From Azolla caroliniana (lineage: Eukaryota > Plantae > Polypodiophyta): DNA of 64,000 nucleotides. Positions 3,706-62,907 of the stretch are shown piece after piece. The stretch lies in NCBI GenBank assembly GCA_043228905.1, contig JBHGNT010000006.1, positions 7,874,001-7,938,000 on the forward strand. Direction: 5' to 3'. The first letter of the stretch is position 1, and every line of letters starts with the position of its first letter. The notes under the pieces were generated by a model that saw only the letters and a list, made by a program, of their open reading frames with translations, was not told the DNA's origin and searched no databases. A program made the position numbers and the translations under genes.

Positions 3706-5895
3706 TTACGATAAAAAAAAAAGAGAGAGAGAGAAGGAGAAGGAGAAGAGAGACAAATAGAGAGGAACAACTATTTGCCGCTAGAGCAACAATGCATCCA
3801 TTCCTTCTCATTTTCCCGAAATAGATGAAAAGGAAGGAGACAAAGAAGAGAAATAGACAGAGATAGAGATAGATAAGTGGTGTACATAGAAGAAGAAGAG
3901 GCAACATTGACATAATTGGGCAAGTGCTACAACAACATTCTTCTTCGACGGCAAGTTCGAATGTCATCTTGTCTATTCTAGGTTAATTATCCTCCTATTA
4001 TTTTCCTTTTCCTTCTAATTGGGGCATAATATATATGGAAGGGATGGATGAATGTATAAATGAGAGACAAATATAGAGTAAGAGAGGAGAAAGAGAAGAT
4101 GAAGTTATTTTGAAGAAACAAAAGATTGGCATTAATAATACGTATGAGGGGGATATAGATATGATGCCAAGACCATCACATGCACATGTTATGGGAGAAG
4201 GTGAGGAGGAGAGGAATGCTCAATATTGGGATGTAATGCATGTAGTTGACAATGAAGCACTCCATGAGATTTTACCGGACACTATAGATATGGTGGCCAA
4301 TGTAGAAGAGGATGAGATTGTAGAGGTGGAGATGCCACGTAGAGAAATTTTAAAGGTGTTTTCCATGTTTCATGAGAGAGGCATTATTTGCTTCTTTAAA
4401 GGGAAAAATCCTTTAGTAAATTGGGTGGCGCAATGGCTAAATGCAATGATTGGTTGAAATAGTGTGCAAGATGTGTATAAAGGTTCACGCGGGTTTTTCC
4501 AGGTCATTTTTCGAACCAAAGAACAACGAGATAGATTATTATCATGTCTGCCAGTCTTTTACAATAATATTTTAGTCTATATTGTCCCTTGGAGGACACT
4601 AGTAGAGTTTTAGGAAATTTTGAAACAAGAGTGTCCAATATGGGTGGAGGTAGAGTGAAAATTTCCTTTTTTATGGCCTATAATTCAAGGTGTAATGGAA
4701 CAATTGGGAAAGGTGATAGTAGCCCCAAATGCCAAAGCATATAATAGATATAGGTTATGTATTCTATGGAATACAACAAAAAAGAGACTTTTGTGGCTAA
4801 ACATAAAAACTAAGGAGATGAGGTCATTCCATTGCAAATTGCATTGGGGATCATTTGTTGGTCATTGCTGCTAATGTGGTGGTTTGGGCCATTTCATGGC
4901 AGAATGCCAACAAACATGGGCAGTGGAGGTGACTAATAATTCACATGGTGACGAGTTAATGCCAGAGTTTGTACTAAATGATAATGAGGTGCTGAGAAGT
5001 AAGGAGGCAAATGTGGAAAAAGGTAAGAGTGTCGTTATTTTGGAACATAATGACAAAGATATTGAAGAAAGAAGAAAAGATTTAATGGATGAGGATGGAT
5101 CTGGGATTAAGGTGACCTCTAAGGTAAATCATCCAAGTTACCAAAAAGATAGTTTATGCACATCATAGGGTGGAGAGGGGTAGTTCCTCTAGGGATCCTA
5201 TGGGGTTATCACATGCACATAATTATGATCAATTGAAAGGAAGGTCAAAACTATGGCAAGGGTCACAGTATAAACAATCTAATCAAGGAACAAAACCTTT
5301 CAACCTTAGGTTTGAAAAGAACGATAAATCAATTTACCATTAGAAAAACAAAATTGGAAAAGAAATAGTTCATGGGGTACAATCATATCCACCAATAATC
5401 ATCGACGATCTCTGCAAAATGCATTTGCAGTCTTAAGTGATTATTTCAGTGATATACCAAAGATATTTGCACAACGGGAACATGAATAGGCCAAGAAGCA
5501 ACATAATTAGTGAGTGATGAAGATAGTCACATGGAATGTAAGGGGAATTGTTTCTTCGTCCAAGTAGTATGGTATGTGGAAAAGTATTTTTAATAGTCAA
5601 TAGGATATATTATGTGAAGTAGAACATAAGGAGCATGCTAAGGCTGGGTCTTTTTTTTCATCATAAGCAATATAAGGTTTTTTATGCTAGAGTCAATGGA
5701 GGGACTTATTCCGGTGTAATGCTTATTGTAAGGGATAGTTTGCAACCAATACTGGTTCAAAGAGATGTCCGTGGTCGGTTCTTGGTGCTTGAAGTTAATT
5801 AGGAAGGGAAACAGATTTGGGTGATTGGTATTTATGGATCAAATGTTGCAAGGAAACATTTGGATCTTTGGAGATGTTTAAATCAAGTTTTACGT

Positions 5896-6583
5896 CGTCG
5901 CGTTGTTACGCGCGTGCGTGGAGAACAAGGCGGGACCACTGGGGTCTTGGACCGAGGAATAGGTGTGGAAGCGAAAGGAGAGAAAGAGAGAGTCACGCTC
6001 ACACGCGTACAGACAAAGAAGCGCGCGGGAACGCAACCCAACAACACAAGAGACACAGGTTGAGCACGAGATAGGGTAAAAAAAGACGCGTAAATAAATA
6101 TATGTATGCAGACGACTCGAACGGTTACAGCCGATCAGGTCGGCGAGACGGGTGCCGACGCCTGATCACCCACGCACACAGGGGAGCAAGATGGAGATTC
6201 TATCGGAAGCACGCAGGCGTTCCACGGAGCAGAATCAGCCTCTCGAGAACCTGCGCCAAGAAAGCTATGGAGAACGACAGAGGAGAAGAGCTCGGTCCCA
6301 GTCCGACAGCACTTCGTCCCCTCTAGCGCGCGATATCCTCTCTCCCCCGTCTCCCTTTCTTTTATAGCTCAAGGAGGGAGGCCGTCTTGCCCGTTTACAT
6401 CACATTAATTCTCTGTCCTTTCGGACAAAGATACTCCTCGATTCTCCCTATAGAATATTGCTACCTAGGATCTAACCCTTGCGCCTACCTATCTACTTTA
6501 CGACAAGGGACGTGCCCACGTGTAAGGGCCGATTCACACACATTATACACGGTTTGCGCCTGCGGACGGTTTTCTTCACGACA
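5896..6583 (-). repeat. 3' LTR of W1
   Basis: (C)GTCGCG...CACGACA; near-identical to 12299-12986; adjacent PPT-like GGTTAGGTGGGGGCGGA on -. Confidence 0.93.
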
Positions 6584-6659
6584 TCCGCCCCCACCTAACC
6601 GCGCATCCACCGGTATGCGCCAAAATTGGGTTGCTACGAGAGAAAACCGATCCTTGCTT

Positions 6660-9600
6660 TTATTCCTCGTTTACCGGTTCATCCTCCGCCTCGGGCTGCT
6701 CGTCGTCGTTGTCCATGCCTCCTAGCCCCGGCTCCCCGTCGTGCTGTTTCTTGAACGCTTTGATCCTCTTCCCCGCTACCAGTATCGCCATTCTCGTATC
6801 GTCGAGCTCCGCGAGATGGTATGTCCCATTGTCGTTGGCGCCTGTTACTACGTAAGGCCCGAACCACTTCCTCGCAAACTTCCGCGTGGCCCTGTGCTGA
6901 TTGTCGAGGCTGCTGTCGTAGAATAGCACCCAGTCGCCTTCCTTGATCTTCCTTGGCCTGGACCGGTGTGTTCGGTCGAACCGGGCTTTGTTCCTTATCC
7001 TCGCTACCCGAAGTTTCTCCGCGGCTTGCTCTACGTCCTCCGGCCTCCGCTCGAGCTGTCGAATCCGCGCCGCCAATAGTTCCTCTCGGCTCATCTCATC
7101 CCTCTAGTCCACCGTGGCCCACGAGGAGATCGTTCGCTCTGTTGGCATGATCGGCTTCTGTCCGAACATCAGCTCGGCCGGCATGAACCCGGTTACCGAA
7201 CTGTGCGTAGTCCGGTCCGCCCACAAGGTATAAGGTAGCAGCCGTGGCCAGTCCTCGACTCGGCCTCCGCACGCCCGTACTAGCGCTTTGACAATTGGCC
7301 CGTGTCCGCGCTCCACCTTCCCGTTCACCTCCGGATTGTACGCTGTGGTGAGCGAAAGTTTGACTCCTAGCCGGTCGAACATCTCTTCGGCTTCTTCTGC
7401 GTCCAACTTGCCACGGTCAGCCATGATCTTCCCTACGCACCCGTATCGGCATACTACGTCCTCAATCAAAAACCGGCATACGGCTGCCGTCGTCTTGTTC
7501 TGCAGGGCTCGGCCTTCAACCTGGTTCGTTAGATCTTCCCGAGCCAGCACCAGATACCGCATCTGTCCTACCCCCATTGGCATCGTCACCAAATCCACCA
7601 TCCACTTGAAGTGGACGGTCGGAGGGTAGGTCGGGTGAAGCTCGTCCCGGTGTCGGATCATGGAGTGCATCTGGCAGCTTTCGCAAGTCGTCACGAACCG
7701 ATGCACGTCCCGGTATAGTCCCGACCACCAGTACTTTCCCTTTAGCTTTTCGAACGTGGCCCACGTTCCACGGTGTCCAGCCCACGGGCTATCGTGGTAC
7801 GCCGCCAGCAAACCCTCATGTTCCTCCTTCGCCACCACTCGAAGCGGGATGCCGTTCCTCTTCTTCGGGTGCTTCCAGATGTATCCGTCCCGGAGAAAGA
7901 ATCGGTAGGCTTTCTTCCGAATCCGGTTGGCCTCGTCTGTTGTCCATGCCGCGTCCGGTGTCATTGTTTTCAGGAACTCGCCGATCTGCAGCCACTCCCC
8001 GTCGTACTTGCTCTCGTCGAAGTCGTTAAGCGTCGGAGAGCATTCCCCGTTGGTTGTCACGTAAGCCGCCTCGAAGAAGTCCACGCCGACTTCCTCGTCC
8101 TCTGAAACCATGCCGCCGTTGTTTTCGAACCTCGCCCTTGAAAGCATGTCGGCCATGGCGTTGTCTTTCCCGGAAATGTGTCGTATTTCCGGATTCAAGG
8201 ACTTGATGTACGCTATCCACCTGAGCATTTCCAGGTCCGGCGTCGTGCATCCGAAAACCATGCCAAGAATTGGCAGGCAGTCCGTCTCGATAATTACCTC
8301 TGCCCCGATCAGGTAGTCTTTATTGGCCTTTACCGCCGAAACGATACCCCAGAGCTCGCGTTTAACCTGGGCGTATCCTCGCTGTCGCTCGCTGAGGACC
8401 TTCGCACCGAACCGGATCGGGAAACGCATGCCATCCTCGTCCTCCTGGTTGACGACCCATCCAATCCCAGTCGGACTCGTATCTACCGTTACGTAAATTG
8501 GAGTGCTCTTTCCGTAGACAGCCTTTCGGAGTGCCGGAGCCGCGGCAAGTGCTTCCTTCATCTTCCGGACAGATTTCGTATGCTCGTCTTTCCACTCGAA
8601 TCTTCGCCCCTTTTTCAGCAACCCATATAACGGCTCCGCGACGTGAGCGTAATGCGGGATCCATATGTGGTAGAACGCGCACGCTCCTAAGAACCTCTGA
8701 ACCTCCGTGACCGAGCTACAGTCGTCCTTCATCGCGGAGATGGCTTCTACCTTAGCCGGAGACGGTTTCCGGCCGTACGACCCGCATAGGTGTCCGACGA
8801 CCATGATCTCTGCTTGCCCGAAGGCCGATTTTCCCCCAGAGAAGGTGAGCCTCGCGCCCTCCAACCTCTATAGCACCTTCTCGCAGTCATCGATGTGCGT
8901 CGCCACGAATTTCCGGCACCCGTTCGGTCCGATCGTTTCGTCCCTTTCCTCCACCGGGCATCCCTTGATCGGGACGTCATCCAGAAACGGCATGGTGATG
9001 TCCGAGATACAATCCCTCAGCACCTTGTTCATTGCGTTCACCATGTGAGCCACCGAGTTCATCCCTCCTTGCGGTAGGGTACACATCCGTACTAGGCCGA
9101 GAGGAGTTCGCATTGTCGTGATGTCTCTGCTTTCTATGGCTAGCTGGAACTGATTGTACCCCGAGTAGAGATCACCGACTGAGTAAATCGACCTTCCAGC
9201 GAAGGCCTCTGCGAACTCGTCTATTGTTGGTCCGATCCCTGCGTTTCGAATGGTCACCTTGTTGACCGGCTACAGGTCTTGAATAAAGCGCAGCGTGCCA
9301 TCCTTCTTCAGCACGGTAAACCACCGATTCGAGTATGGGGCACTCGATGGTTCGAGGATTCCCATTTCGACCTTCTGCTTTAACAGCTCCATCAACTTCG
9401 GGATGTGAGCTCTGGGTACTGGAATCGGTTTGAGACTCCACGGCACATGCGGTACCGTGAATATCACCATCGGTTCCACGACTGTCGGGTCTACGCACCC
9501 GATCTCCTTCGGTGAGAATGCGAAAGCCTTCCCGTGCCTTCCGAGCATTCCCCGAAAACGGTCCTCTTCCGCCAGCAGTAGGAAGCCCCCCCCACCGATT

Positions 9601-10151
9601 TTGAGGTCGTGTAGCGTTATATCGGTGAATGTGTGTCCTATGCGGGCCGGATTTCGTAAACTCGGGTCCGACACAACCCCCTTTATTTGCAACTCGCTGC
9701 CCTCCGGCAAGGGAGCCGCGACTGGCCTCACCTTCCGGTCCACAGTCTTGTACCTCGTGTCCACCCGGGCCGTCCGACCCGACTCGAGCCCTCTACTAAA
9801 GTCCGCGATGACTTCGTACATCCTTTCCGAACATACCGGAATCGTCCGGTCCTCTTTAAGGACCCCTCCGACTACCTCTCACAGCTCCCCCAAGGTATCG
9901 TCGAAAGAGACCGCCTCCACGGCTCCGTTGATTTCCTCTCCAAGGTCGAGGACGCCACATGCCCGAAGTCGCTCCTCCGCCCTTCTCTTCTTCCGTCCAA
10001 CAACGTCAACTATCGTACACCCTCCCTTGTCGGAGAACCAAAATTTCCTATTTATAGTACAGGGTTTCTTCGCTATCTTGCACTTGTGGGGTTCTCCGGG
10101 AGTGTCCGGACTATCGCGGCCCCACGCCTTGATAGTCCTCTTCAAAAATCC
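6660..10151 (-). pseudogene. pol: W1 pol (RT, RNase H, integrase), same frame but broken by TAG stops
   Basis: ORFs 9879..10145, 9270..9821, 8868..9257 (LPQG...FLDD), 7104..8864 (RH; HHCC; D,D,E) and 6660..7094 (GPY). Confidence 0.92.
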
Positions 10152-12255
10152 TCCCGGCTTTCGCCCCCGAGGGTCTCGCGGTTCCTCTCATGGTTTGGTC
10201 TCACCGTCAGGAACTGGACCGAGTGAAACCCATCCTGGCTCTTGACCCTCGCATAGGCCGAGCCGTTGTCCAGCACCTTGGTCTCCATCCGTGCTGCCGT
10301 GATGTATGGTTCTCCTAGTATAACCGGATGTGAGGACGTCTCCTGCACGAAGAAGTGCTGGTCAATCTCGACATCGCCGATCTTTACTCGTACATTCGGG
10401 CAGGCTCCATGCAGTTCTTCGGTGGCACGCGTCGCTGCCTGTATCTTCCACCCGTGCTTGCTGTTGATCGGCCATTTCCCCTTCTTATAGAAGTCCATGG
10501 ACATCAAATTGATTTCTGAACCGTGGTCCACCAACGCCACCACCGGTTCATGAACATCTCCGATCTTCACGGGGGTCTCCGTGGTCGCTCTGGCCCAGTG
10601 TGGCCTCGAATAGTGGCTCTCCGCCAACTCGTCTTCCAGCGCCATGTCCTCTATGTGCGTCGTCCGCACCTCCACCGACTTCTTCGGTTCTGTCTCCGTC
10701 GACAGCCTCTTCCTCTTCACCAAGTCTACGATGGAGTCGTGGAACTCCTTCTTGGCGATCCCGAGCACTTCCCTCAGCGACAGTTTCACCTTGTTGTCGA
10801 GGATTCGTTCTTCCAGGACCTTTCGCAGGTCCGTAGATCTTTCGATTTCTGTGCCTAGCCGGTACCCGCCCTTCTTGGGATTATCCTGGGCGCCGGATGC
10901 ACCGGCCTCATTCCGTCTTTGCCCGAATCGAGTGTCATATCGTTGCGAGGGCCCAACCCCTCCGGATTTTCCTACTCGCTTGTCCTCCACCAGAGCCTCG
11001 TAGTTTTGACAAGCGGCTTTGACGAAGCCCGTCTTTTCTTCCACCGGGTTACCTCCCGGACCCGTTTTTTCGCGCGGTCCACCTCTTCTTTCCTCAGCCG
11101 TGCGCCGGCGAGGCCTTCCAGCATCGTCGGCCAGAACCCGGCTTTGTTCGTCTTCGGGGTCTCGCCTCCTCCGACCCGAATACCAACCGACGCCGAGTAG
11201 TGGACGGTCTCCGCGTGACGAGCCGCCGCCTCCCCCATCAGCCTTTTCATACCCCCTCGCCTGACGTTCAGGTTCAGGGCCCTTCGGGTTTCGCTGGCGT
11301 GCAACCGACCGTTCCACAGGTACACCACGTTGCTTCTCATCGCCTCGGTGAAGTCCCCGCAGTCCTTTCGGATGTGCCCAACCGTGTCACAGCACATGCA
11401 CCTGTTTTCAGCTAGAGGTCGTCGGTCACGGGCCTGTTCGCCACCATCCCTCCGTGCCTGGGCGATCTGGAGATCCCTTACCATCCGTGTCAGCTCCTCC
11501 AGAACTACTCCCCCGTACGAGCCATTGACCATGCTGGTTGAAGCCGACCCGGTCTCGAGCCAATCTCGGGTCTCTTCCCTTCACGTTGGTGGTGTTGGCT
11601 CGAGCTTCCTTGCTGCAACGGAGCCCGCCCCTGTCGATCCTTTGTCAGCCCATTCACTCCATTTGTCGAAACGGCCACAAACCCTTTTCACTACGGCCCA
11701 GTCGGCCGTTAGCCCGTCATCAGTCTCCAATAGGAGGCTTTCCTGCCCCCGATCCCGCTCGTCAACCGACTTAACAAACAATAGGACACGTCTTGTGTCC
11801 AGAACGGTCCGGTCAAGCACCGAGAGGCGCGCAAAGCGTTCCTGAAACTCATGAAGGAGCACTGACGCGTTCCTTCCTTTGTCGGGGGTCTCCACCCACT
11901 CCATGAAGTCCCGCTTCGAAAGTTGAAGCGCATCTTCAAGCCCGTATCTTTCGAGGAGCCGACCTTCGAACTCCTCCCAGGTCCGGCTCTCGTCTCGTAC
12001 CTCGAGCACCTCCGTATGGATACCCGGCATCGCCACTCGAGGGAATCCGGCTAGAGGCCTCTCTTCCGGAATGTCCCTCATTACCATCTCAGCCCGGTAG
12101 GACGCCAAGTAGCTCGTGGCATCCTTCCCACTAAACCGGCCGATCGTACCGACAACCGCCTCGATAGCCCTATCAAGGGCGCCGGTGCCTTCGCGAGCAC
12201 TCACTATACGGTCCACAGCCGAAGCCATGGCTTCTGCGAGGTCCGACCCCCTCAT
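10142..12255 (-). pseudogene. gag: W1 ORF1 gag-protease, disrupted
   Basis: ORFs 11581..12255, 10972..11532 (CMCCDTVGHIRKDC knuckle) and 10142..11317 (ALVDHGSEIN ... VILG protease), ending ESREDF*. Confidence 0.88.
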
Positions 12256-12276
12256 CTTCTACTCCTCTGCCGCCTG

Positions 12277-12294
12277 TTCACGGCGGGTTCACCA
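12277..12294 (-). promoter_or_regulatory. PBS complementary to tRNA-Trp (17/18)
   Basis: Minus strand TGGTGAACCCGCCGTGAA next to the 5' LTR. Confidence 0.8.
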
Positions 12295-12298
12295 AAGA

Positions 12299-12986
12299 TG
12301 TTGCGTTGTTACGCGCGTGCGTGGAGAACAAGGCGGGACCACTGGGGTCTTGGACCGAGGAATAGGTGAGGAAGCGAAAGGAGAGAAAGAGAGAGACACG
12401 CTCACACGCGTACAGACAAAGAAGCGCACGGGAACGCAGCCCAACAACACAAGAGACACAGGTTGAGCACGAGATAGGGTAAAAAAAGACGCGTAAATAA
12501 ATATATGTATGCAGACGACTCGAACGGTTACAACCGATCAGGTCGGTGAGACGGGTGCCGACACTTGATCACCCACGCACACAAGGGAGCAAGATGGAGA
12601 TTCTGTCGGAAGCACGCAGGCGTTCCACGGAGCAGAATCAGCCTCTCGAGAACCTGCGCCAAGAAAGCTATGGAGAACGATAGAGGAGAAGAGCTCGGTC
12701 CCAGTCCGACAACACTTCGTCCCCTCTAGCGTGCGATATCCTCTCTCCCCCGTCTCCCTTTCTTTTATAGCTCAAGGAGGGAGGCCGTCTTGCCCGTTTA
12801 CATCACATTAATTCTCTGTCCTTTCGGACAGAGATACTCCTCGATTCTCCCTATAGAATATTGCTACCTAGGATCTAACCCTTGCGCCTACCTATCTACT
12901 TTACGACAGGGGACGTGCCCACGTGTAAGGGCCGGTTCACACACATTATACATGGCTTGCGCCTGGGGATGGTTTTCTTCACGACA
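12299..12986 (-). repeat. 5' LTR of W1
   Basis: TG...CA; pairs with 5896-6583; TATA (CTATAAAA) on -. Confidence 0.93.
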
Positions 12987-14567
12987 ACGTCATGGAAGAT
13001 TAGGTTTTTTGTTAGAGAATTTTAATATGTGTTCTGAGGTAGGCCAATCTACTTCGATGCATGGCCTAATGGATGCTCCCGAATGAGAGGTATGGGATTT
13101 GTTTATCATGGAGGTCTCAAGGTATGATGCATGGACTTGGATCAATGGAAATGATGTTGGTTATATGTTTCAATCGGCACAATATAGATCAACGTGGAGT
13201 AGATTGGATCGTATTTATATTATGCACGATGACACATTCTTGCCAAAGTTTTTTGACTATGCAAGTGTATAGGGGAATTGGATCATCAGATCATTTCCCA
13301 GTTGTTTTGGAAATCACATGTCATCAAAATGTGGATGGTTTTAGAATTTTATTGGGAAGACAACCATTGAGATTTAATTCATCTTTTCTTGGACATGATA
13401 AGTTTAAACATGGTATGGGACAATTGGTGGGGGAGTTTACAAGAGAAGTTAATGTCTACGGTGTTTCGTCATGGGATATTTCTCTTTCCAATATTCAATG
13501 ATTTACACGATATTATGGAATTTATCAAGCATCCATCCGTAATCAAAAGAAGAGTTTATTACAACACTTTCTAGATAGACCTAATGCATTGTTGGTAAAA
13601 CTTCCATCTGATGATGTGTTGTTGGATATTCAAGAGACATCGTCTCAAGCCTTGCAAGTATTCGAGGTTCGTAGTTATCAACAATCACGAGTGATTGCTA
13701 TGAAAAATGAAGTACATGATCACAACTGTAATTCACATAATTTTTACCATGGGTTGCATGGATCTCATCCTAGAATGAATGTGGTAAGTGTAGAGATTGA
13801 TGGAACTTTTAATACAAACCCACAAGTGATTATTGATAATTGCATTAAACATTTCATTAATCTTTTTGGGCAAGATTGTATTTTGAATGATGACATAAAA
13901 CAAGCGCGATCGATATTATTTAACTTAGTCAAGGTGAGTGGTGGGCAACATGTCATGATTGCATTGGAGGAGGATATAAAGGAGGAGGTGGAATATGTAT
14001 TGTCACATCTTGGAGTTGATAAAAGTCTGGGTTGGGATGACATTACGAATGAGTTTTTTAAAGCCTTTGCACCAGAATTCAAAGCCCCTCTAACAATGAT
14101 ATTCTAAGAAGTGTGGAGTTCGGGCAAAATGCCTGATTCATGGAAAGTTGGTATTGTTAAACTTATACCAAAAGTTGCATCTCCTATGTCTTTTGCCCAA
14201 TGGATACTGATATCATTAATGGGTGGGATGTATAAGGTTTTTGCCAAAGTAATTGCAAATAGACTTCAAAAGGTATTGTCGCCTGTGGTCCATCCAATGC
14301 AATATGAGTTTATTGAGGGAAGGGATGACTTGCATAATATTTTGAATGTGCAAGTGGCAGTGGATTATGCAAAGGAATCCAAGCAACAAATTGTAATGAT
14401 ACTGTCAGGAGCAGTACTAAGACAGAGAAGTACTATCAGGAATAGTACTAAAACAGAGATGGAATTAGTACTAAAAGATGAGGATTAGTACTAAGGGAGG
14501 TGTAGAACTCTCGAGGGAAGGAAAGAGTGAGAGAGAGAGAGAGAGAATGAGGATAACAAAAGATATA

Positions 14568-15504: not shown

Positions 15505-15717
15505 AAGATATATTATGTTAAGGGAATATACAATAGTAACTAGGAGGCTTAAGACTAGCGTTGAACCGATTTGGTACGAAATAATGCCTTGTGCCTCCTT
15601 TTATAGTGTTCTCAGGAGTATTCCTGAAGTTTCTAGAATGTTCCAGAGAAATCTAGAATATACATCAATTTTCTATAGTAAAAGTTAAATGAAAATAATA
15701 TTTTTCATATTACAATA

Positions 15718-15780: not shown

Positions 15781-15788
15781 TCATGACA

Positions 15789-20834: not shown

Positions 20835-20836
20835 AC

Positions 20837-23483: not shown

Positions 23484-23531
<48 letters not shown>

Positions 23532-49645: not shown

Positions 49646-49687
<42 letters not shown>

Positions 49688-50427: not shown

Positions 50428-50459
<32 letters not shown>

Positions 50460-50903
50460 GTACAGTTACGCACACTCTCTATTCTTGCACCAACAAGAAT
50501 GACAACCATTACAACAACAGTAACAACTATAGTAAAAGTTTGCCCTAAGTCATATTTATACTAATATGACTTTTTGGCTATTTACAAATATAGTCTCGAT
50601 GGACTCTCAAAAACATATTTACGAATATGTCTCTTCATCCGGTTCTGACCGGGTCTGTACCATCCGGCTCTCCGTATCCGGGTACTCCCCATCCGGTTCA
50701 TACCGGGTCTGTATCATCCGGCTCTCCATATCCGGGTACTCCTCATCCGGTTCATACCGGGTCTGTATCATCCGGCTCTCCGTAGCCGGGTACTCCTCAT
50801 CCGGTTCATACCGGGTCTGTATCATCCGGCTCTCCGTAGCCGGGTCCACCTCGTACGACACTAATCTTCTCCCTTCCCATCCGGAGGGACCTGTTTCCCA
50901 ACA
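50158..50903 (-). mobile_element. Solo LTR of a Copia C-related subfamily
   Basis: TGACGGG...CCCAACA flanked by TSD CCTGT (50153-50157, 50904-50908); diverged from the host LTR. Confidence 0.9.
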
Positions 50904-53900
50904 CCTGTCTCCCAACAAACGCATAGGGTAAGAGTTGCAGCCAGTTCCCGACTTGGCCTCCACACGCCCGTACTAACGCTTTGACGATCGGCCTATGTCT
51001 GCGTTCCACCTTCCCGTTAGCCTCCGGATTGTACGCTGTGGTGAGCGAGAGTTTAATCCCTAGCTGGTTAAACAACTCTTCCACCTCTTGCACGTCTAAT
51101 TATCCGCGCTCGGCCACGATCTTACCTATGCACCCGTACCGACATACCACTTCCTCGATAAAAAATCGGCACACGGCCACGGTTGCTTTGTTCTGCAATG
51201 CTTGGCCTTCCACCTGGTTTGTCAAGTCCTCCCGAGCCAGCACCAGATACCGCATCTGCCCTACCCCCATCGGCATTGTCACTAGATACACCATCCACTT
51301 GAAGTGGACGGTCGGAGGGTAGGTCGGGTGAAGCTCGTCCCGATGTCGGACTATGGAGTGCACCTGATAGCTTTCGCAAGTCGTCACGAACCAATGCACG
51401 TCTCAATATAGTCCCGGCCACAAGTACTTCCCCTTTAGCTTCTCGAATGTGGCCCACGTCCCGCGGTGTCTGGCCCAGGGACTCTCGTGGTATGCCATCA
51501 ACAATTCTTCCCGTTCCTTATTCTTCGCCACCACTCAGAGCGGGATGTCGTTTCTCTTCTTTGGGTGCTTCCATAAGCTCCCGTCCCGTAGGAAGAATCA
51601 GTACACTTTCTTCCGAATCCGGTTGGTCTCTTCCTTCGTCCACGCCGCGTCTGGTGTCATTGTCTTTAGGAACCCACTGATCTGGAGCCACTCCCCGTTG
51701 TACTTTCTCTCGTTGAATTCGTTAAGCGTCGGAGTGCTCCCCTTTCTTGTTGTTACGTTAGCTGACCCGAAGAAGTCCTTGCCGACTTCTTCGTTTTCCG
51801 AAACCATGCCGTCCTTGTCGTTGAACCACGCCCTTGAAAGCATATCGGCCATGGCATTATCTTTTCCGGAGATGTGCTGTATCTCTAGGTTCAAGGACTT
51901 GATGTACGCGATCCACCTGAGCATCGCCAGGTCTGGAGTCGCGCATCCGGAGACCATACCCAAAATCGGTAGGCAGTCCGTCTCGATGATCACTTCCGTC
52001 CCGATCAGATAGTCCTTGTCAGCCTTGACTGTCGAAATGATACCCCATAGCTCGTGCTTGATTTGGGCATATCCTCGCTGCCGCTTGCTCAATACATTTG
52101 CCCCAAACCGGAACGGGAACTGTACGCTATATTCATCTTCTTGATTGATCACCCACCCGATCCTGGTGGGGCTCGTGTCCACCGTCACGTGAATGGGGAC
52201 TTCCTTGCCGTAAACCACTTTTCGGAGAGCCGGTGCCGCGACGAGTGCCTCCTTCAGTCTCCAGACCGACTCCGTGTGCTCCATCCTCCATTCGAACCGG
52301 AGCCCTTTCTTTAATAACTCGTAAAGCGGCTCCGCAACATGCGCGTAGTGCGGAATCCAGATGTGATAGAACGCACACGCCCCAAGGACCCTTCGGACCT
52401 CCGTGACCGACCCACAATCATCCTTCATCGCGGAGATGGCTTCTACCTTCATCGGGGATGGCTTCCGGCCGTAAGGCCCGCACAGGTGTTCGACAACCAG
52501 GATCTCCGGCTGTCCGAAGGCTGAATTTTCTCCTAGGAAGGTGAGCTACACACTCTCGAGTCTTTGTAGCACCTTCTCGCAGTCGCGGATGTGATCCGTC
52601 ACGAACCTCCGGCAACCGTCGGGCCCGACTGACTCGTCCTTGTCCTCCACCAGACTCCCTTTGATCAGGATGTCATCCAGAAATGACATGGTGATGTCCG
52701 GGATGCAGTCCCTCAACACCTTGTTCATCGCATTCACCATGTGCGCCACCGAGTTCGTTCCTCCTTGCGGCAGGGTGCACATCCGAACTAGGCCGAGACG
52801 AGTCCGCATCGTCGTGACATCCTTGCTCTCTATGGCTAGTTGGAACCCGACCGAGTAGATCGACCTCCCTATGAAGGTCTCCGCGAACTCATCGATGGTC
52901 GGTCTGATACCTGCGTTTCGAATGGTCACCGTGTTGACTGGCTGCAGGTCTTGTATGAAGCGCAATGTGCTGTTCTTCTTCGGCACGATAAACCACCGAT
53001 TTGAATATGGGGCACTCGACGGTTCGAGGATGCCCATCTCCACCTTTTGTTTCAGCAATTCCATCAGCTTCGGGATGTGAGCTCTGGGTACCGCAATCGG
53101 TTTGAGATTCCACAGCACATGCGGTACCGTGAAGATCACCATTGGTTCTACAACTTTCGGGTCGACGCACCCGATCTCCTCCGGTGAGAATGCGGAAGCC
53201 TTCCCGTGCCTCCCGAGCATTCTCCGAAACCGGTCCTCTTCCGCCGGTAGTAGAAAACCACCCCCACTGATCTTGAGCTCCCGTAGCGTTATGTCGGTGA
53301 ACATGTGTCCCATGCTGTCCGGATCTCGTAAACTTGGGTCCGATGCGACCCCCTTTATCCGTAACTCATTGCTCTCTGGCAAGGGTGCCGCGACTGGCCT
53401 CACCTTCCGGTCCACATTCTTGTACTTTGTATCCACTCGGGCCGTCCGATTTGACTCGAGCCCACTACCGAAGTCGGTGATGACTTCGTACATCTTTTCC
53501 GAACATACCGGAATCGTCTGGTCCCCATTAAGGCCTTCTCCGAACACCTCCCGTAACTTCCCCAAGGTGTCGTCGAAAGAGACCGCCTCCATGGCTCCGC
53601 TGATTTCCTCTTCAGGGCTGAGGACTCCGCATGCCCGAAGTCGCTCCTCCGTCCGCTTCTTTTCCCGGCAAACTACGCCGGCTATCGTACAACCACCGCT
53701 GTCGGAGAACCAAAATTTTCTACCATGGTACAAGTGTTTTTGCCTATAGTATATTTGTGGGGTTTTTCCGGGGTGTCCGGACTATCGCGGCCCCACGCCT
53801 TGATAGCCCTCTCTAAAAATCCCCTCGGTTTTGGCACCGAGGGTCTCGCGGTTACGCTCATGGTTCGGTCGCACCATCTGGAACAGGACCGAGTGACGCC

Positions 53901-54675
53901 CATCTTGGCTCTTGACTCGTGCATATGCCGAGCCGTTGTCCAGCACCTTTGTCTCCATGCGTGCTGCCGTGATGTACAGTTCTCCTAGTATCACCGGATG
54001 TGAGGACGTCTCCTGCACAAAGAAGTGTTGATCGATCTCGACATCGCCGATTTTTACTCGTACATTCGGGCAGGCTCCGTGTAGCTCCTCCGTGGTGCGC
54101 ATTGCTGCCCGTATCTTCCACCCGTGCTTGGTGTTGATCGGCCACTTTCCCTTGGACGCCACCACCGGCTCTTGGACGTCCCCGATCCGAACAGGGGTTT
54201 TCGTAGTGGCCCTAGCCCAATGTAGCCTCGAGTAGTGGCTTCCCTCCAATTCGTCCTCTAGGGCCACGTCTTCTAGGTGGGTCGTTCGCACCTCCACCGG
54301 CTTCTCCGGCTCCGGCTCCGGCTCCGTCGAAAGCCTTTTCCGCTTCACCAAGTCTACGATGGAGTCGTGGAACTCCTTCTTGGTGATACCGAGCACTTCC
54401 CTCAGTGACAACTCCACTTTGCTGTCGAGGATCCGTTCCTCCAGGACCTTTCGATCTCCGTGCTCAACCGATAACCGGCCTTCTTGGCCTTGTCCGATGT
54501 GCCGGATGCACCGACATCATTCTGCTTCGTCCCGAACCGGGTCTCATACCGTTGTGAGGGTCCGGCCACCCCGGTCTTTCCCGCTCGCTTGTCTTCCACC
54601 AGAACCTCATAGTTCTAGCACGCGGCTTCCACGAAGCCCGTCTTCTCTTCGACCGGGTCACTCCACCCGGTTACC

Positions 54676-57600
54676 GAGAGAAGGTATCGTGCGCTAGAGG
54701 GGACGAAGTGCCGTCGGACTGGGACCGAGCTCTTCTTTTCTGTCGTTCTCCATAGCTTTCTTTTGCGCAGGTTCTCGAGAGGCTGATTCGGCTCCGTGGA
54801 ACGCCCGTGTGCTTCCGGCAGAATCTCCATCTTGCTCCCCTATGTGCGTGGGTGATCAGGCGTCGGCATCCATCTCGCCGACCTGATCGGCTGTAACCGT
54901 TCGAGTCGTCTGCATACATACAAATACATACATATATTTATATACACACACTAGTGTTCTTATACTCTATCTCTCCTTTTTCTCACCTATTCCTCGGTCC
55001 AAGACCCCAGTGGTCCCGCCTTGTTCTCCATGCACGCGTGTAACAACGCGACATCTTTTGGTGAACCCGACGTGAACAGGCGGCAGAGGAGTAGAAGATG
55101 AGGGGGTCGAACCTCGTAGAAGCCATGGCTTCGGCTGTGGACCGTATAGTGAGTGCGTGCGAAGGCACCGGCGCCCTTGATAGGGCTATCGAGGCGGTTG
55201 TCGGTACGATCGGCCGGTTTAGTGGGAAGGATGCCACGAGCTACTTGGCGTCCTACCGGGCTGAGATGGTAATGAGGGACATTCTGGAAGAGAGGCGTCT
55301 AGCCGGATTCCCTCGAGTGGCGATGCCAGGCATCCATACAGAGGTGCTCGAGGTACGGGCCGAGAGCCGAACCTGGGAGGAGTTCGAAGGTCGGCTCCTG
55401 AAAAAATACGGGCTTGAAGATGCGCTTCGACTTTCGAAGCGGGACTTCATGGAGTGGGTGGAGACCCCCGACAAAGGAATGAACACGTCGGTGCTCCTCC
55501 GGGAGTTTGAGGAACGCTTTGCGCGCCTCTCGGTGCTTGACCGGACCATTCTGGACACAAGTCGTGTCCTATTGTTTGTTAAGTCAGTTGATGAGCAGGA
55601 TCGGGAGCAAGTAGGCCTCCTATTGGAGACTGATGACGGGCTGACGGTCGACTGGGCCGTGGTGAAGAGGATCTGTGGCTGTTTCGACAAACGGCGGGAA
55701 TGAGTTGACAAAGGATCGACAGGGGCGGGCTTTGTCGCAGCAAGGAAGCTCGAGCCAACACCACCAACGCGAAGGGAAGAGACCCGAGATTGGCTCGAGA
55801 CCGGATTGGCTTCGACCGGCATGGTCAAGGGCTCGTCCGGGGGAGCAACTCTGGAGGAACTGACGCGGATGGTAAAGGATCTCCAGATCGCCCAGGCACG
55901 GAGGGATGGTGGCGAACAGGCCCGTGACCGACGACCTCTGGCTGGAAATAGGTGCATGTGGTGTGACGCGGTTGGCCACATCCGGAAGGACTGCGGGGAC
56001 TTCACTGAGGCGATGAGAAGCAACGTGGTGTACCTGTGGAACGGTCGGGTGCACGCCAGCGAGACCCGAAGGGCCCTGGACTTGAACGTCGGGAGAGGAG
56101 GTATGAAAAGGCTGATGGAGGAGGCGGCGGCTCGCCACGCGGAGACCGTCCACTACTCGGCGTCAGCTGGTATTCGGGTCGGAGGTGGCGAGGCCCCGAA
56201 GACGAACAAAGCCGGGATCTGGCCGACGATGCTAGAAGGCCTCGCTGGCGCACGACTAAGGAAAGAAGAGGCGGACCGCGCGGAAAAACGGGTCCGGGAG
56301 GTAACCGGGTGGAGTGACCCGGTGGAAGAAAAGACGGGCTTCGTCGAAGCCGCTTGTCAAAAGTACGAGGCTCTGGTGGAGGACAAGCGGGTAGGAAAAA
56401 CCGGAGGGGCCGGGCCCTCGCAACGATATGAAACTCGATTTGGGCAAAGGCGGAATGAGGCCGGTGTAACCGACGCCCAAGATAATCCCAAGAGGGGCGG
56501 GTACCGGCTGGGCACAAAAGTCGAAAGATCCACGGACCTGCGAAAGGTCCTGGAAGAACGAATCCTCGACAACAAGGTGGAACTGTCGTTGAGGGAAGTG
56601 CTCGGGATCGCCAAGAAGGAGTTCCACAACTCCATGGTAGACTTGGTGAAGAGGAAGAGGTTGTCGACGGAGACAGAACCGGAGAAGCCGGTGGAGGTGC
56701 GCACGACGCACATAGAGGACATGGCGCTGGAAGACGAGTTGGCAGAGAGCCACTATTCGAGGCCGCACTGGGCCAGAGCGACCATGGAGACCCCCGTGAA
56801 GATCGGAGATGTTCATGAACAGGTGGTGGCGTTGGTGGACCACAGTTCAGAAATCAATTTGATGTCCATGGACTTCTACAAGAAGGGGAAATGGCCGATC
56901 AACACCAAGCACGGGTGGAAAATACGGGCAACAACGCGTGCCACCGAAGAACTGCATGGAGCCTGCCCGAATGTACGAGTAAAGATCGGCGATGTCAAGA
57001 TTGACCAACACTTCTTTGTGCAGGAGATGTCCTCACATCCGGTTATACTAGGAGAACCGTACATCACGACAGCACGGATAGAGAACAAGGTACTGGACAA
57101 CGGCTCGGCCTATGCAAGGGTCAAGAGCCAGGATGGGCGTCACTCGGTCTAGTTCCTGACGGTGAGACCGAACCATGAGCGGAACTGCGAGACCCTCGGG
57201 GGCGAAAGCCGAGAGGATTTTTAGAGAGGGCTATCAAGGCGTGGGGCCGCGATAGCCCGGACACTCCGGGAAAACCCCACAAGTGTACGATAGCGAAGAA
57301 GACCTGTACTATAAGTAGGAAATTTTGGTTCTCCGACAATGGAGGGTGTACGATAGTCGACGTCGTTGGCCGGAAGAAGAAAAGGGCGGAGGAGTGCATT
57401 CGGGCATGTGGTATCCTCGGCCCTGGAGAGGAAATCAACAGAGCCATGGAGGCGGTCTCTTTCGACGATACCTTGGGGGAGCTGCGAGAGGTAGTCGGAG
57501 GAGTCCTTAAAGAGGACCGGACGATTCCGGTATGTTCGGAAAGGATGTACGAAGTCATCGTGGACTTCAGTAGAGGGCTCGAGTCAGATCGGACGGCCCG

Positions 57601-59734
57601 GGTGGACACGAGGTACAAGACTGTGGACCGGAAGGTGAGGCCAGTCGTGGCTCCCTTGCCGGAGGGCAGCGAGTTGCGAATAAAGGGGGTTGCGTCGGAC
57701 CCGAGTTTACGAAATCCGGCGCGCATAGGACACACGTTGACCGACATAACGCTACGTGAGCTCAAAATCGGTGGGGGTGGTTTCCTACTGCTGGCGGAAG
57801 AGGACCGTTTTCGGGGAATGCTTGGAAGGCACAGGAAGGCTTTCGCATTCTCACCGGAGGAGATCGGGTGCGTAGACCCAACAGTCATGGAACCGATGGT
57901 GATATTCACGGTACCGCATGTGCCGTGGAGTCTCAAACCGATTCCAGTACCCAGAGCTCACATCCTGAAGCTGATGGAGCTGTTAAAGCAGAAGGTTGAG
58001 ATGGGCATCCTGGAACCGTCGAGTGCCCCATACTTGAATCGGTGGTTTACCGTGCCGAAGAAGGACGGCACGTTGCGCTTTATTCAAGACCTGCAGCCGG
58101 TCAACAAGGTGACCATTCGAAACGCAGGAATCGGACCGACAATAGACGAGTTGGCGGAGGCCTTCGCTGGAAGGTCAATTTACTTGGTCGGTGATCTCTA
58201 CTCGGGGTACGATCAGTTCCAGCTAGCCATAGAGATCAGCGACAACACGACAATGCGAACTCCTCTCGACCTAGTATTGATGTCTACCCTACCGCAAGGA
58301 GGGACGAACTCGGTGGGTCACATGGTGAACGCAATGAACAAGGTCCTGAGGGATTGTATCCCGGACATCACCATGCCGTTTTTGGACGACGTCTCGATCA
58401 AGGGATGCCCGGTGGAGAAAAAGGACGAGACGATCGGACCGGACGGGTGCCGGAAATTCGTGGCGACGCACATCGATGACTGCGAGAAGGTGCTGCAAAG
58501 GTTAGAGGGTGCGAGGCTCACCTTCTCCGGGGAAAAATCGGCCTTCGGGCAATCAGAGATCATGTTCAGACAAAAGCTGATCATGCCAACAGAGCGAACG
58601 ATCTCCTTGTGGGCCACGGTGGACTGGAGGGATGAGATGAGCCGGGAGGAACTATTGGCGGCGCGGATTCGACAGCTCGAGCGGAGGCCGGAGGACGCAG
58701 AGCGAGCCGCGGAGAAACTTCGAGTAGCGAGGATAAGGAACAAAGCCCGGTTCGACCGAACACACCGGCTCCGGCCAAAGAAGATCGAGGAAGGCGACTG
58801 GGTGCTAGTCTACGACAACAGCCTCGACAATCAGCACAGGGCCACGCGAAAGTTTGCGAGGAGGTGGTTCAAGCCTTACATAGTAACAGGCGCCAATGAC
58901 AATGGGACGTAGCATCTCGCGGAGCTCGACGGTACGAGAATAGCAATACCGGTTGCGGGGAAGAGGATCAAAGCATTCAAGAAATGACACGACGGTGAGC
59001 CGGAGCTAGGGGGCATGGACAGCAACGACGAGCAGCCCGAGGTGGAGGACGAGCCGGGAAACGAGGAATAAAAGCAAGGACCAGTTTTCTCCAGTAGGAA
59101 CCCAATTTTGGCGCATACCGGTGGATGCGCGGTTAGGTGGGGGCGGATGTCGTGAAGAAAACCGTCCCCAGGCGCAAACCGTGTATAGCGTGTGTGAACC
59201 GGCCCTTACATGTGGGCACGCCCCTTATCGTATAGTAGATAGGTAGGCACAAAAGTCGAATCCTAGGTAGCAATATTCTATAGGGAGAATTGAGGAGTAT
59301 CTCTGTCGGACTAGGACCGAGCTCTTCTTTTCTGTCGTTCTCCATAGCTTTCTTTTGCACAGGTTCTCGAGAGGCTGATTCGGCTCCGTGGAACGCCCGT
59401 GTGCTTTCGGCAGAATCTCCATCTTGCTCCCCTGTGTGTGTGGGTAATCAGGCGTCGACATCCATCTCGCCGACCTGATCGGCTGTAACCGTTCGAGTCA
59501 TCTGCATACATACAAATACATACATATATTTATATACACACACTAGTGTTCTTATACTTTATCTCCTGCTCAACTCGTGTCTCCTGTGTTGTTGGCCGCG
59601 TTCCCGTGCACTTCTTTGTCTATACGTGTGTGAGCGTGTCTCTCTCTCTCTCTCTCCCTTTTCTCACCTATTCCTCGGTCCAAGACCCCAGTGGTCCCGC
59701 CTTGTTCTCCACACACGCGCGTAACAACGCGACA
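54676..59734 (+). mobile_element. W-lineage Gypsy copy 5, inserted antisense into W3 gag, internally deleted
   Basis: Truncated 5' LTR 54676-55053; PBS TGGTGAACCCGACGTGAA at 55059-55076; gag-PR 55098-57224; pol 57215-59071; 3' LTR 59148-59734 followed by GCGT. Confidence 0.92.
57215..57280 (+). promoter_or_regulatory. Predicted -1 ribosomal frameshift signal (slippery heptamer plus stem-loop/pseudoknot)
   Basis: G GAT TTT TAG; 6-nt spacer; stem GGGCTATC/GATAGCCC; loop GTGGGG complementary to downstream CCCCAC; pol lies in the -1 frame. Homologues at 10086-10151, 43261-43326 and 53757-53822. Confidence 0.8.
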
Positions 59735-60823
59735 GCGTGCAGTCCGCTTCCTCTTTCCTCAGCCTTACGCCGGCGAGGCCTTCCAACATCACCGGCCAGA
59801 ATCCAGGGCCGCTTCTTCCATCAGTTGTTTCATACCCCCTCGTCCGACATTTAAATCTAGGGCCCTTCGGGTCTCGCTAGCATGTAGCCGGAGGACTTCG
59901 GTCACGGACTTGTTCGCCACCGTCCCTCCGTGCTTGTGCAATCTGGAGGTCCCTCACCATCTGAGTCAGCTCCTCCACGAGCCTTTGACCATGCCGGTCG
60001 ATGTCGATCCGGTCTCGAGCCAATCTCGGGTCTCTTCCCTTCGCGCCGGTGGGGTTACCTTGACCTTCCTTGTCGCAACAGAACCCGCCCCCGTCAAGCC
60101 TTTATCGACCCACTCACGCCGTTTGTCAAAACGGCTGCAGACTCTCTTCACCATGGCCTAGTCGGTTGTTAGGCCGTCATCGGTCTCCAACAGGAAGCCC
60201 ACTTGCTCCCGGTCCCTTGCGTCCACCGATTTAACGAACAATAGGACACGACTCGTGTCCAACACGGTCCGGTCCAGTGTTGAAAGTCGTGCGAAGCGTT
60301 CTTCAAACTCCCGAAAGAGCACCAACGCGTTTCTCCCCTTTTCGGGGGTCTCCACCCATTCCATGAAGTCCCGCTTCGATAGCCGAAGTGCGTCATCAAG
60401 CCCTGTTGTCCGCCGGAATAGTAACCGACCAACAAGAGCGTAGGAATAAGAAATAATATAAGAGCATAACGCATGTAAGGGTTCACGCAGGAAGCGTGAA
60501 AGGCTAATAGACCCTGCGTATATAAAGGGCAGAAAACCTCTGATAGAGGGGGCATGTATTTTTGGAATGTAAAGAAGCGTATCGTAATGGAATTCTATCT
60601 TCTCTGAAAGTCTGTGTATAGCTATGGCTAATCTACTGTGTGTCTGGAATACCTGAGCGTGTAATAATGTAAGTGTAACCATTGCTAAGGAGTCGGTTGT
60701 AGTCGTCTCCATTATACGCTGATAGGTTACGGGGAACATTCCCCTACGTATTACGCATAGATGCCCCATTCGTTGTTCCACAATCACTTGGAGGTCTAGG
60801 TCGAAGGACTGACTGAAGACCGT

Positions 60824-61340
60824 TGTCGCGTTGTTACGCGCGTGCGTGTAGAAGGGGCGGGACCATGAGGGTCTTGGACTAGGGAGTAGAGGAGAAAGAA
60901 TAAGACACAAAATGGAAGCTTAGCTCAAGAGGAGGCGAGAAAGAATAAGACAATAATATAGAATAGACGGGGCAAGATGCTCAACAAGTTAGCTTAAGGA
61001 AACACAAACGCTTTACAATGGTGGCCGCCATGGCTGCACCAAACGACTATATGAAAACCCTAAAGGAAAACCCAAGAAGAAAACCCTAACCGAAACCCTA
61101 AAACCGAATAGGAAACCCTCGACCTAAGTGGTATGCCTCTCTCCCTCAAAATAGGCAACCCCTCATAAGTGAACCCTCCCTTCCTTTTATAGCCCAAGGA
61201 GGGAGGGACCTTACAATGTGGGATAAAATTCCCCTCTTCTTTCCACACACCATTCCCTAGTATACACGTGCACATGTTTCACACCACCGATTTGCCCATT
61301 CCACCCCGGTTTCACACTATAGCCGGAAATCTTCACGACA
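60824..61340 (-). mobile_element. Solo LTR of the W lineage (copy 6)
   Basis: TGTCGCGTTGTTACGCG...CTTCACGACA; 4-bp TSD CCGT (60820-60823, 61341-61344); shares the TTTTATAG..CAAGGAGGGAG block with other W LTRs. Confidence 0.88.
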
Positions 61341-62907
61341 CCGTGTTCCTAATCGGTAACACTTTTGGCACGCCGGGTGATCTATGTCTTCTCACAGACG
61401 AGCAACGACGAATGGATGTTTAGCCGCAGACGCCCCAGAGAACCAACACGACAAGAACGACCAATCACACGGTCCGTCACATGCCAGGCAAAGGAATGCG
61501 CGCAGCAGAAGCCTCGGTTCAACGACCTCAATACTACCTGTTGTGATTACAAAGGTGATTCTTCGCTCTCTAAACACTTTGACGATACGCGGGGAGCACG
61601 CTCACCACAGCCACCCTGTGGTCTTTCCCGACCCGCCGTAGCCCCCAACATGGCCTTTGCCTATCCCCGCTTTAACGGTGAAACCGACGCCGCAACCCAT
61701 ATTCGCATGTTCCTTAATGTCTGGAATGCGAACCACATGGCGCAGAGCCTTTCGGAGGCGGTAGCGCACCAGTCGAAAATGACGGAGTTCGGGTTCATTG
61801 GATGGGCGAGCGGCGTTTTGGCATTCACAGATGGACTTACCAGCAATCACAACCTTCGATCAGTAGCAGTCCACTTTCTTGCGGTTCTTCCATCGGAGGG
61901 TTCCACAACGCGAAATCCTCGGACAATTCTACATGATTAAGCAACTGCCGACCAAGATGATCGCAGACTTCAGCTTACGTTTCCAAAATTTACGACGGAA
62001 ACTAGAACGGAGCCCCGCGGAGGACGAGGCTCGAGAGACATTTCTGGCAGCATTACGCCGACCCATCCAGTCAACGCTCAACAACAATAGCGTGAAAGGG
62101 GAAACGACGGATATGGTCATTGAACGAGCGTTACAACTCGAGTTGGACAACGAGGAAGAAAGGTTTTCTATGTCCTCCTTACGACAAGAGTTACCCCAGG
62201 ACGAGGAACGCCACTTTCGTCAAGCAATCCAGTGCACGATTTGCTTGAACTCGGGGCATTCCGTAGTGGAGTGCAACATGCGAATCCACTGCCCAATCTG
62301 CCACTCAAAGGCTCACACAATCCAACAATGCGAATACAATATGTTTAACAGAGCCGCTCCCACAGTCCGCAGCATGGACACAAAGCGTCCCCCACGCCGT
62401 ACTGAACCAAGGCGGCAAGAAGACCGACCATGGTATATGGATTGCAACCCACGGGACGACCGGCACCACCGGAATCGCCGAAATCACAACGATTCCGAGG
62501 AAGACGAACCAGAGGATGAGGATTATCGTGGACATCCGAGTTATGCTAAAGGTGGCCGACGCTATGAGAATCACCGGCTGACAAACAAACGTGGCGGCTT
62601 CAATGGTTATCGTGGGAAGCCGCGTCAATATCGAGATCGTCGGCGTTACGACGAAAGCTTGGGAGATGAGCGACACCAAGAACCACGACGGGACCAACAA
62701 CAACCACCGCGTGCGTTCCGACAAACAAGGCCGGACCGGGAGGAGCAAGTCGCACCAGGGGATCGGCACACACCACCAGGAGCCGAGAAGGGTGAGTCAA
62801 GCATCCATTGTTTTATTTGTCAGCAGCCTGGACATTATGCCACGCAATGCCCAGCACGCAAGAGCAAGGGGCCCGCCGTCAACACGATTACGACGGAAGT
62901 ACAGCAA

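What the first reader, a model, noticed from the sequence alone, without database searches (positions are those of the whole stretch)
5892..61344. Gypsy lineage W appears to integrate specifically at CpG (ACGN/NCGT) with a 4-bp TSD
Seen: all six W insertions have CG at the centre of the 4-bp flank, with ACG on one strand. The sites are ACGT/ACGT (5892, 12987), CCGT (29235), ACGG (36176), ACGT/ACGT (39113, 46095), GCGT (59735) and CCGT/CCGT (60820, 61341). Three have both TSD copies; three have one flank only. Several hosts are AT-rich and CpG-poor (L1, chromovirus, Copia LTR). The other LTR elements here make 5-bp TSDs with no shared motif. Established: most plant LTR elements give 5-bp TSDs with weak sequence bias, while 4-bp sequence-biased TSDs are known from insect gypsy elements. 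Inference: the W integrase, which shows no chromodomain, reads a CpG step, possibly methylated. That would steer it into silenced TE DNA and help explain the deep nesting.
Basis: partly seen in the sequence, partly recalled or inferred. Interest (0 to 1): 0.85.

Follow-up and report, generated by a model that had tools for sequence, protein, structure and literature searches.

The report
Plant retrotransposon that inserts at CpG
This family of plant jumping genes inserts almost only at CG dinucleotides, most often ACGT, and duplicates four bases of the target, a habit already published for the Phygy group of moss elements to which it likely belongs; whether the CG must be methylated is untested.

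Summary
All six W insertions have a central CG at the stated coordinates, and three show both 4-bp copies. Public reads hold the empty site of one. In public assemblies, 73 of 76 further independent W flanks are NCGN against a 3.4% background. ACGT is favoured (32, expected 4) and TCGA is absent (0, expected 10).

It is not new. Neumann et al. 2019 (PMC6317226) list Phygy, a non-chromovirus Ty3/gypsy clade of Physcomitrella, as 4-bp TSD (100%, NCGN), tRNA-Trp primed, with no extra domain. W matches these features and falls among liverwort and fern relatives. No labelled Phygy sequence was available, so membership is not proven by a tree.

The likely mechanism is sequence readout by the integrase at a sharply bent 4-bp site, a narrowed form of the foamy-virus VYRB consensus. 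Methylation dependence and steering into silenced TE DNA are untested, and three non-W elements nest in the same stack.

What this adds is a sharper motif (VCGB, ACGT first) and a likely wider host range.

The parts
5892..5895 (.). W1 left TSD copy, ACGT
5896..12986 (-). W1, full-length element, 7091 bp; LTRs 5896-6583 and 12299-12986, 96.8% identical; gag and pol broken by stops and frameshifts; host DNA is AT-rich, CpG o/e about 0.46
12987..12990 (.). W1 right TSD copy, ACGT
29235..29238 (.). W2 single flank, CCGT
29239..31356 (-). W2, diverged subfamily: 3' LTR 29239-29873, PPT and integrase end, cut by a Copia insertion near 31357; the rest is inferred to lie beyond the window
36176..36179 (.). 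W3 single flank, ACGG, inside a Copia LTR; the sister Copia LTR reads ATGG at the same place
36180..60403 (-). W3 in pieces (36180-37490, 50918-54675, about 59735-60403), split by Copia C, W5 and another Gypsy; 5' end inferred to lie beyond the window
39113..39116 (.). W4 left TSD copy, ACGT, in the RT/RNase H region of Copia C
   Evidence: empty site
39117..46094 (-). W4, full-length element, 6978 bp; LTRs 39117-39749 and 45487-46094, 98.3% identical over aligned bases
39823..43485 (-). W4 open pol frame (1220 aa stop to stop): RT, RNase H, zinc-binding and core integrase, SH3-like end; no chromodomain, no second RNase H; stop 73 bp before the LTR
45466..45483 (-). W4 primer-binding site, 18 nt, 3 nt from the 5' LTR; exact complement of the CCA-ended plant small RNA listed as miR894; its reading as tRNA-Trp is recalled
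46095..46098 (.). W4 right TSD copy, ACGT
54676..59734 (+). W5, inserted in W3 gag; 5' LTR truncated by a deletion that also removed the left TSD copy; about 1.6 kb of pol deleted; 3' LTR 59148-59734
59735..59738 (.). W5 single flank, GCGT
60820..61344 (-). W solo LTR 60824-61340 (517 bp) with CCGT at 60820-60823 and 61341-61344, inside the LTR of another Gypsy
14403..21291 (-). Control: chromodomain-bearing Gypsy (Tcn1-like, inferred), 5-bp TSD GATAC
23389..28916 (-). Control: Copia A, 5-bp TSD TGTAT
37491..50917 (-). Control: Copia C, host of W4, inserted in W3, 5-bp TSD AACGC

Best explanation
W is a non-chromovirus Ty3/gypsy retrotransposon family, likely of the Phygy group, that inserts at CG with a 4-bp duplication, and its integrase likely picks the site itself by reading the DNA sequence at a sharply bent target, probably without needing a methyl mark. 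Shown: 4-bp TSD; central CG in 6 of 6 window sites and 73 of 76 outside flanks; A>C>G>T at the first base and T>G>C>A at the last (VCGB); no clear preference beyond base 4; no chromodomain. From retroviral work: a 4-bp stagger forces a sharp bend and favours a central pyrimidine-purine step, with T and A disfavoured at the first and last TSD base (PFV consensus VYRB). Inferred: W narrows YR to CG by base contacts, since TA, CA and TG make up 86% of background YR steps but 1 of 74 YR-centred sites. Candidate contact points, untested, are an acidic residue (E or D in 103 of 103 relatives) aligned with PFV Ala188, and a conserved Gln-His loop before the GPY motif. Nesting would follow from TE abundance, CG supply in GC-rich elements and tolerance of insertions there, not from a W-specific homing step.
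For: Flank tally and base matrix (RCGY 45 against 11.5 expected, YCGR 4 against 29.1; both LTR subfamilies, 55 of 57 and 18 of 19). Read depth in 2 of 2 runs carries through the ACGT and falls about 60- to 80-fold after it (semi-quantitative). The Phygy row of Additional file 5 of PMC6317226 reads: 186 elements, 4 bp 100% (NCGN), tRNA-Trp 81%, no extra domain, no extra ORF; the text names Phygy as the only plant exception with a TSD motif. W's named kin are Riccia and Adiantum proteins in one starred clade. The closest solved integrases are Ty3 and PFV. PFV VYRB and its independence from chromatin (PMC4422553). Residue conservation.
Against: No sequence labelled Phygy or Physcomitrium came up in three homologue searches and three cluster look-ups, so membership rests on features. 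W (6978 and 7091 bp) is shorter than the Phygy range (7656-9968 bp). The Trp reading of the PBS is recalled. No integrase-DNA model or assay was run. CG choice is far stricter (96%) than the YR enrichment of retroviruses (about 63% over random), so bending alone cannot explain it, and a methyl contribution is not excluded. The 108 W-type loci come from one series of related assemblies of an unnamed plant.
Confidence: 0.75

Rival explanations
1. The integrase needs or strongly prefers methylated CG, which sends new copies into silenced TE DNA without a chromodomain.
For: Strict CG centre. CG sites in these TEs decay as methylated sites do: 8 of 19 transitions between W1's LTRs are in CG context, paralogous Copia copies read ATGT at the W4 site, and the sister LTR reads ATGG at the W3 site. 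32 of 75 flanks have CpG o/e under 0.6. Phygy into Tcn1 is the commonest repeated nest in Physcomitrella (PMC6911290 passage), and Phygy is enriched at Apopellia centromeres (PMC12885004 passage).
Against: All of this shows that TE DNA is methylated, not that the integrase reads the mark. 16 of 75 flanks have o/e over 0.9. Three non-W elements nest in the same stack. W carries no Pfam methyl-reading domain at E up to 1. ZAM integrase binds a CG-rich target in vitro (abstract). Two literature searches listed no paper showing a methyl-CpG-dependent LTR integrase.
Confidence: 0.13
2. W is a separate non-seed-plant lineage that shares the 4-bp NCGN habit and primer with Phygy without being inside the clade (sister group or convergence).
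For: Size below the Phygy range. Phygy was defined as species-specific from one moss. No labelled reference was found.
Against: NCGN is reported for no other plant lineage. TSD length, motif, primer and domain content all match. Relatives span liverworts and ferns at 58-72% RT-RH identity, so a moss branch is expected.
Confidence: 0.12
3. A host protein that binds ACGT-core elements (bZIP type; recalled) tethers the intasome.
For: ACGT is the top site, 32 of 73.
Against: 41 of 73 sites are not ACGT. The base after ACGT is mixed (G 12, C 9, T 6, A 5). A bound factor would be expected to cover the site, not expose it (inference).
Confidence: 0.04
4. The pattern is an artefact of small numbers or misplaced LTR ends (the CG being part of the LTR).
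For: W1's left end is mutated, and only three window elements keep both flanks.
Against: The empty site holds one ACGT. The same 4-mer lies on both sides and differs between insertions. Internal LTR junctions are followed by the PPT or PBS, not CG. 73 of 76 outside flanks are NCGN against 2 of 11 chance matches.
Confidence: 0.01

Closest known systems
Phygy (non-chromovirus Ty3/gypsy clade of Physcomitrium patens; REXdb, Neumann et al. 2019, PMC6317226)
   Same: 4-bp TSD, NCGN motif, Trp-type PBS (W's amino-acid assignment recalled), no chromodomain, no additional RNase H, no extra ORF, coding region fills the internal part.
   Different: W is about 7.0-7.1 kb against 7.7-10.0 kb. Its host is probably not a moss (nearest named kin is a fern; inferred). 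The motif is resolved here as VCGB with ACGT first, where the paper gives NCGN. No sequence comparison was possible.
TatI (OTA/Tat; same table)
   Same: 4-bp TSD, tRNA-Trp.
   Different: TatI always has an additional RNase H and is about 9 kb; no TSD motif is reported for it. W has a single RNase H and no room for a second.
Selgy (Selaginella; same table)
   Same: Short non-chromovirus, 4-bp TSD, gag-protease and pol in different frames.
   Different: tRNA-Ala primer, about 5 kb, no TSD motif reported.
Prototype foamy virus intasome (PMC4422553)
   Same: 4-bp TSD, central YR step, T and A avoided at the first and last base (VYRB); integrase homologous (E 3.6e-20).
   Different: PFV bias is weak and allows any YR; W is 96% CG. 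W has Glu where PFV has Ala188.
ZAM of Drosophila (PMC2527525, abstract)
   Same: Gypsy-type element with CG-rich target specificity intrinsic to its integrase.
   Different: Six-base CGCGCg consensus; an insect lineage; W shows no clear preference outside four bases.

Membership tests
Phygy | 4-bp TSD | tested here: met
   3 of 3 window elements with both ends, 2 of 2 outside solo LTRs, and the empty site
Phygy | NCGN target motif | tested here: met
   6 of 6 and 73 of 76
Phygy | PBS for tRNA-Trp | tested here: inconclusive
   An 18-nt PBS complementary to a conserved CCA-ended plant small RNA; the Trp identity is recalled; scans for the tRNA gene found nothing
Phygy | Ty3/gypsy order with no chromodomain | tested here: met
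   RT-RH-INT order; no Chromo hit at E up to 1, positive control E 2e-9
Phygy | No additional RNase H and no extra ORF; coding region fills the internal part | tested here: met
   No RVT_3 or RNase_H hit in W4 pol at E up to 1; pol stop lies 73 bp from the LTR; gag starts just after the PBS
Phygy | Length 7656-9968 bp (descriptive; the authors rate size as weak for classification) | tested here: not met
   6978 and 7091 bp
Phygy | Placement in the Phygy clade of an RT-RH-INT tree (the primary definition) | not testable with these tools
   The REXdb FASTA supplement is too large to read; no Physcomitrium-labelled homologue was found; the tree has no Phygy reference and no outgroup
TatI | Additional RNase H (100% of members) | tested here: not met
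Selgy | tRNA-Ala PBS, about 5 kb | tested here: not met
   About 7 kb; PBS read as Trp-type (recalled)
Chromovirus (Tcn1, Galadriel and others) | C-terminal chromodomain | tested here: not met
   the tail after the GPY motif is 63 residues in W4 with no Chromo hit

The most novel reading that the evidence does not exclude
Phygy-type integrases read 5-methyl-CG directly, so that a retrotransposon homes to silenced DNA through the target base itself instead of through a chromodomain; the strict VCGB motif would be the footprint of a methyl-reading intasome.
Probability: 0.13. Interest if true: 0.85.

Novelty: new member of a known kind. Interest (0 to 1): 0.25.

Why it matters
As it stands it confirms, in a second plant and with a background test, the one published case of a plant LTR lineage with a TSD motif, and it sharpens NCGN to VCGB with ACGT first. 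A 96% strict dinucleotide choice is unusual for an LTR integrase and gives a clean system for asking how intasomes read target bases. Since plants methylate CG, the untested question of whether the mark helps or hinders insertion is worth an experiment. If the mark is required, this would be a new way of targeting heterochromatin and a possible tool for methylation-aware insertion.

Tried and rejected
No whole genome is held, so there was no genome-wide logo and no TE or CG background for the host.

Relatives in viral contigs: none. A Physcomitrium- or Phygy-labelled protein: none in three homologue searches (120 rows listed each), one representative search and 30 proteins looked up. The Atlas gave only generic Gypsy clusters.

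Finding the primer tRNA gene: 0 hits in viral and prokaryote contigs.

A methylation proxy from flank CpG depletion cannot be read without a genome baseline, so it is not used as support. The 26-of-76 TE share of flanks likewise has no baseline.

A 5-bp reading of W1 was rejected on the family evidence. Pure YR flexibility was rejected as sufficient (TA 0, CA 1, TG 0 against CG 73). An extended G-box motif is not seen.

Earlier findings: nothing by words or near this place. Same-genome notes on Gypsy elements lacking a PPT do not apply, since W has a G-rich tract before its 3' LTR in 5 of 5 copies checked.

PMC2864245, PMC7466625, PMC8282616 and PMC12810828 (passages) did not tie W to a named element. 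No structure or complex prediction was run.
Full report
Observation. The window is a stack of plant retroelements. Six insertions belong to one Gypsy lineage, W. W1 (5896-12986) and W4 (39117-46094) are full length, W2, W3 and W5 are cut by later events, and 60824-61340 is a solo LTR. W1, W4 and the solo LTR have the same 4-mer on both sides. W5 lost its left copy in a short deletion; the far ends of W2 and W3 are inferred to lie beyond the window. W1's left end is mutated and alone would allow a 5-bp reading. Contigs from 4 of 4 public runs hold the empty Copia site of W4, skipping 6982 bases with exactly 4 ambiguous letters. The three other elements with both ends in view make 5-bp TSDs: TGTAT, GATAC and AACGC.

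Independent test. No genome is held, so I scanned public metagenome contigs for the conserved LTR end. It gave 119 loci of about 220 estimated. I set aside 11 with no W homology, 28 internal PPT junctions, 1 too short and 3 duplicates. Of 76 unique flanks, 73 are NCGN, against 3.4% of 22,085 background positions in the same flanks (P 4e-103). The 11 chance rows give 2 of 11. The exceptions are CCAT, AAGG and AGAT. Base 1 is A48 C14 G10 T4 and base 4 is T51 G15 C9 A1; positions 5-16 show no clear motif. ACGT is 32 (4.2 expected), TCGA 0 (10.1), RCGY 45 (11.5) and YCGR 4 (29.1). Both LTR subfamilies behave alike (55 of 57; 18 of 19). Two loci are solo LTRs with ACGT on both sides. These loci come from one series of related assemblies of an unnamed plant whose LTRs are roughly 67-95% identical to the window's, so they may be the same or a related species. 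In 2 of 2 runs laid on the W4 junction, depth at flank bases 3-5 is 9-11% of LTR depth against about 0.6% for random flanks, then falls about 60- to 80-fold; this is rough, since depths are summed over overlapping contigs.

What W is. W4 has an open pol frame with RT, RNase H, integrase and an SH3-like end. It has no chromodomain (the control element in the window scores E 2e-9) and no second RNase H. Gag carries DUF4100 and is followed by the protease motif in another frame than pol. The PBS is the exact complement of an 18-nt CCA-ended small RNA found across plants (miR894; PMC5846777 passages); its reading as tRNA-Trp is recalled. A G-rich tract precedes the 3' LTR in 5 of 5 copies. Named homologues are Riccia and Adiantum proteins, 58-72% identical over RT-RH, in one starred clade with W (29 rows chosen by me, no outgroup). 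The host is probably a non-seed plant, perhaps a fern (inference).

Mechanism. Shown: 4-bp stagger, strict central CG, VCGB. From PMC4422553 (abstract and sections 3 and 6): 4-bp intasomes bend the target sharply, favour a central YR, avoid T first and A last (PFV VYRB), and do so largely regardless of chromatin; Ala188 and Arg329 make base contacts. W's motif is a special case of that consensus. Bending alone is not enough, since TA, CA and TG are 86% of background YR steps but 1 of 74 YR-centred sites, so base-specific contacts are inferred. Candidates are the E or D found in 103 of 103 relatives at the position aligned with PFV Ala188 and a Gln-His pair (92 of 103 each) in the C-terminal domain; neither was tested, and Ala188 in PFV contacts bases outside the TSD. 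ZAM shows that a Gypsy-type integrase can bind a CG-rich target by itself (PMC2527525, abstract only).

Methylation and nesting. TE CG sites here decay as methylated sites do, but that does not show the integrase reading the mark. The stack runs W2, then Copia B, then W3, which holds Copia C (with W4 inside), W5, and another Gypsy (with the solo LTR inside); three of the nested insertions are not W. At least 26 of 76 outside flanks are TE-like, and their CpG o/e runs from depleted (32 of 75 under 0.6) to undepleted (16 over 0.9), with no baseline. In favour of a TE bias, Phygy-in-Tcn1 nests are common in Physcomitrella (PMC6911290 passages) and Phygy is enriched at Apopellia centromeres (PMC12885004 passages). 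The question stays open.

Comparison with what is known. Neumann et al. 2019 (PMC6317226; passages, section 9, and Additional files 5 and 7 read) state that Phygy elements are the exception among plant LTR elements in preferring NCGN, and tabulate 186 elements: 4 bp 100%, tRNA-Trp 81%, no extra domain, 7656-9968 bp. W works like Phygy in every feature I could test except length. TatI, Selgy and chromoviruses fail on additional RNase H, size or primer, and chromodomain. Membership by phylogeny could not be tested: Additional files 1 and 3 (element table and FASTA) were too large to read and may already hold the ACGT skew, and no labelled Phygy protein was found. I did not see the VCGB refinement or a methylation test in the passages read from 4 of the 18 papers listed for 'Phygy', or in the listings; subscription journals are mostly not covered.

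Verdict. A real and strong signal, already described for the lineage that W most likely belongs to. New member of a known kind; interest 0.25. The methyl-reading version has probability about 0.13 and would rate 0.85.

Noticed in passing
window 37491-50917: Copia C has three LTR copies (37491-38292, 49368-50157, 50158-50917), the last two in tandem, all inside one 5-bp TSD; its LTRs hold a 54-bp internal repeat.
   Followed up: partly
window 31357-36179: Five-level nest: W2 holds Copia B, which holds W3, which holds Copia C, which holds W4. LTR divergence is low throughout (K2P 0.017-0.033 in the four pairs measured).
   Followed up: partly
window 45466-45483 and 55059-55075: W's primer site is the exact complement of the abundant plant small RNA listed as miR894, which could act on these elements.
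   Followed up: partly
window 60405-64000: Another Gypsy-like element, with a different tRNA primer site near 61363 (Arg-type, recalled), a CCHC gag at 61867-63135 and a 282-bp tandem repeat at 62908-63757, hosts the W solo LTR; it may be the family of the same-genome notes on PPT-less elements.
   Followed up: no
window 14403-21291: Chromodomain Gypsy with no tRNA-Met primer site (Tcn1-like, inferred); a 250-bp duplication at 15880-16129 and 16175-16424 repeats the integrase end.
   Followed up: partly
window 54676-59734: W5 sits in the opposite orientation inside W3 gag; L031 and L075 also show W inserted into W gag.
   Followed up: partly
L013 and L056: The same flank follows two different W LTR subfamily ends, which suggests recombination between subfamilies or a mis-assembly.
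   Followed up: no
window 43770-43800 (W4) and the same region of W1: Gag-protease ends at a conserved stop and pol starts in another frame, as for a frameshift or overlapping-ORF design; not analysed.
   Followed up: no
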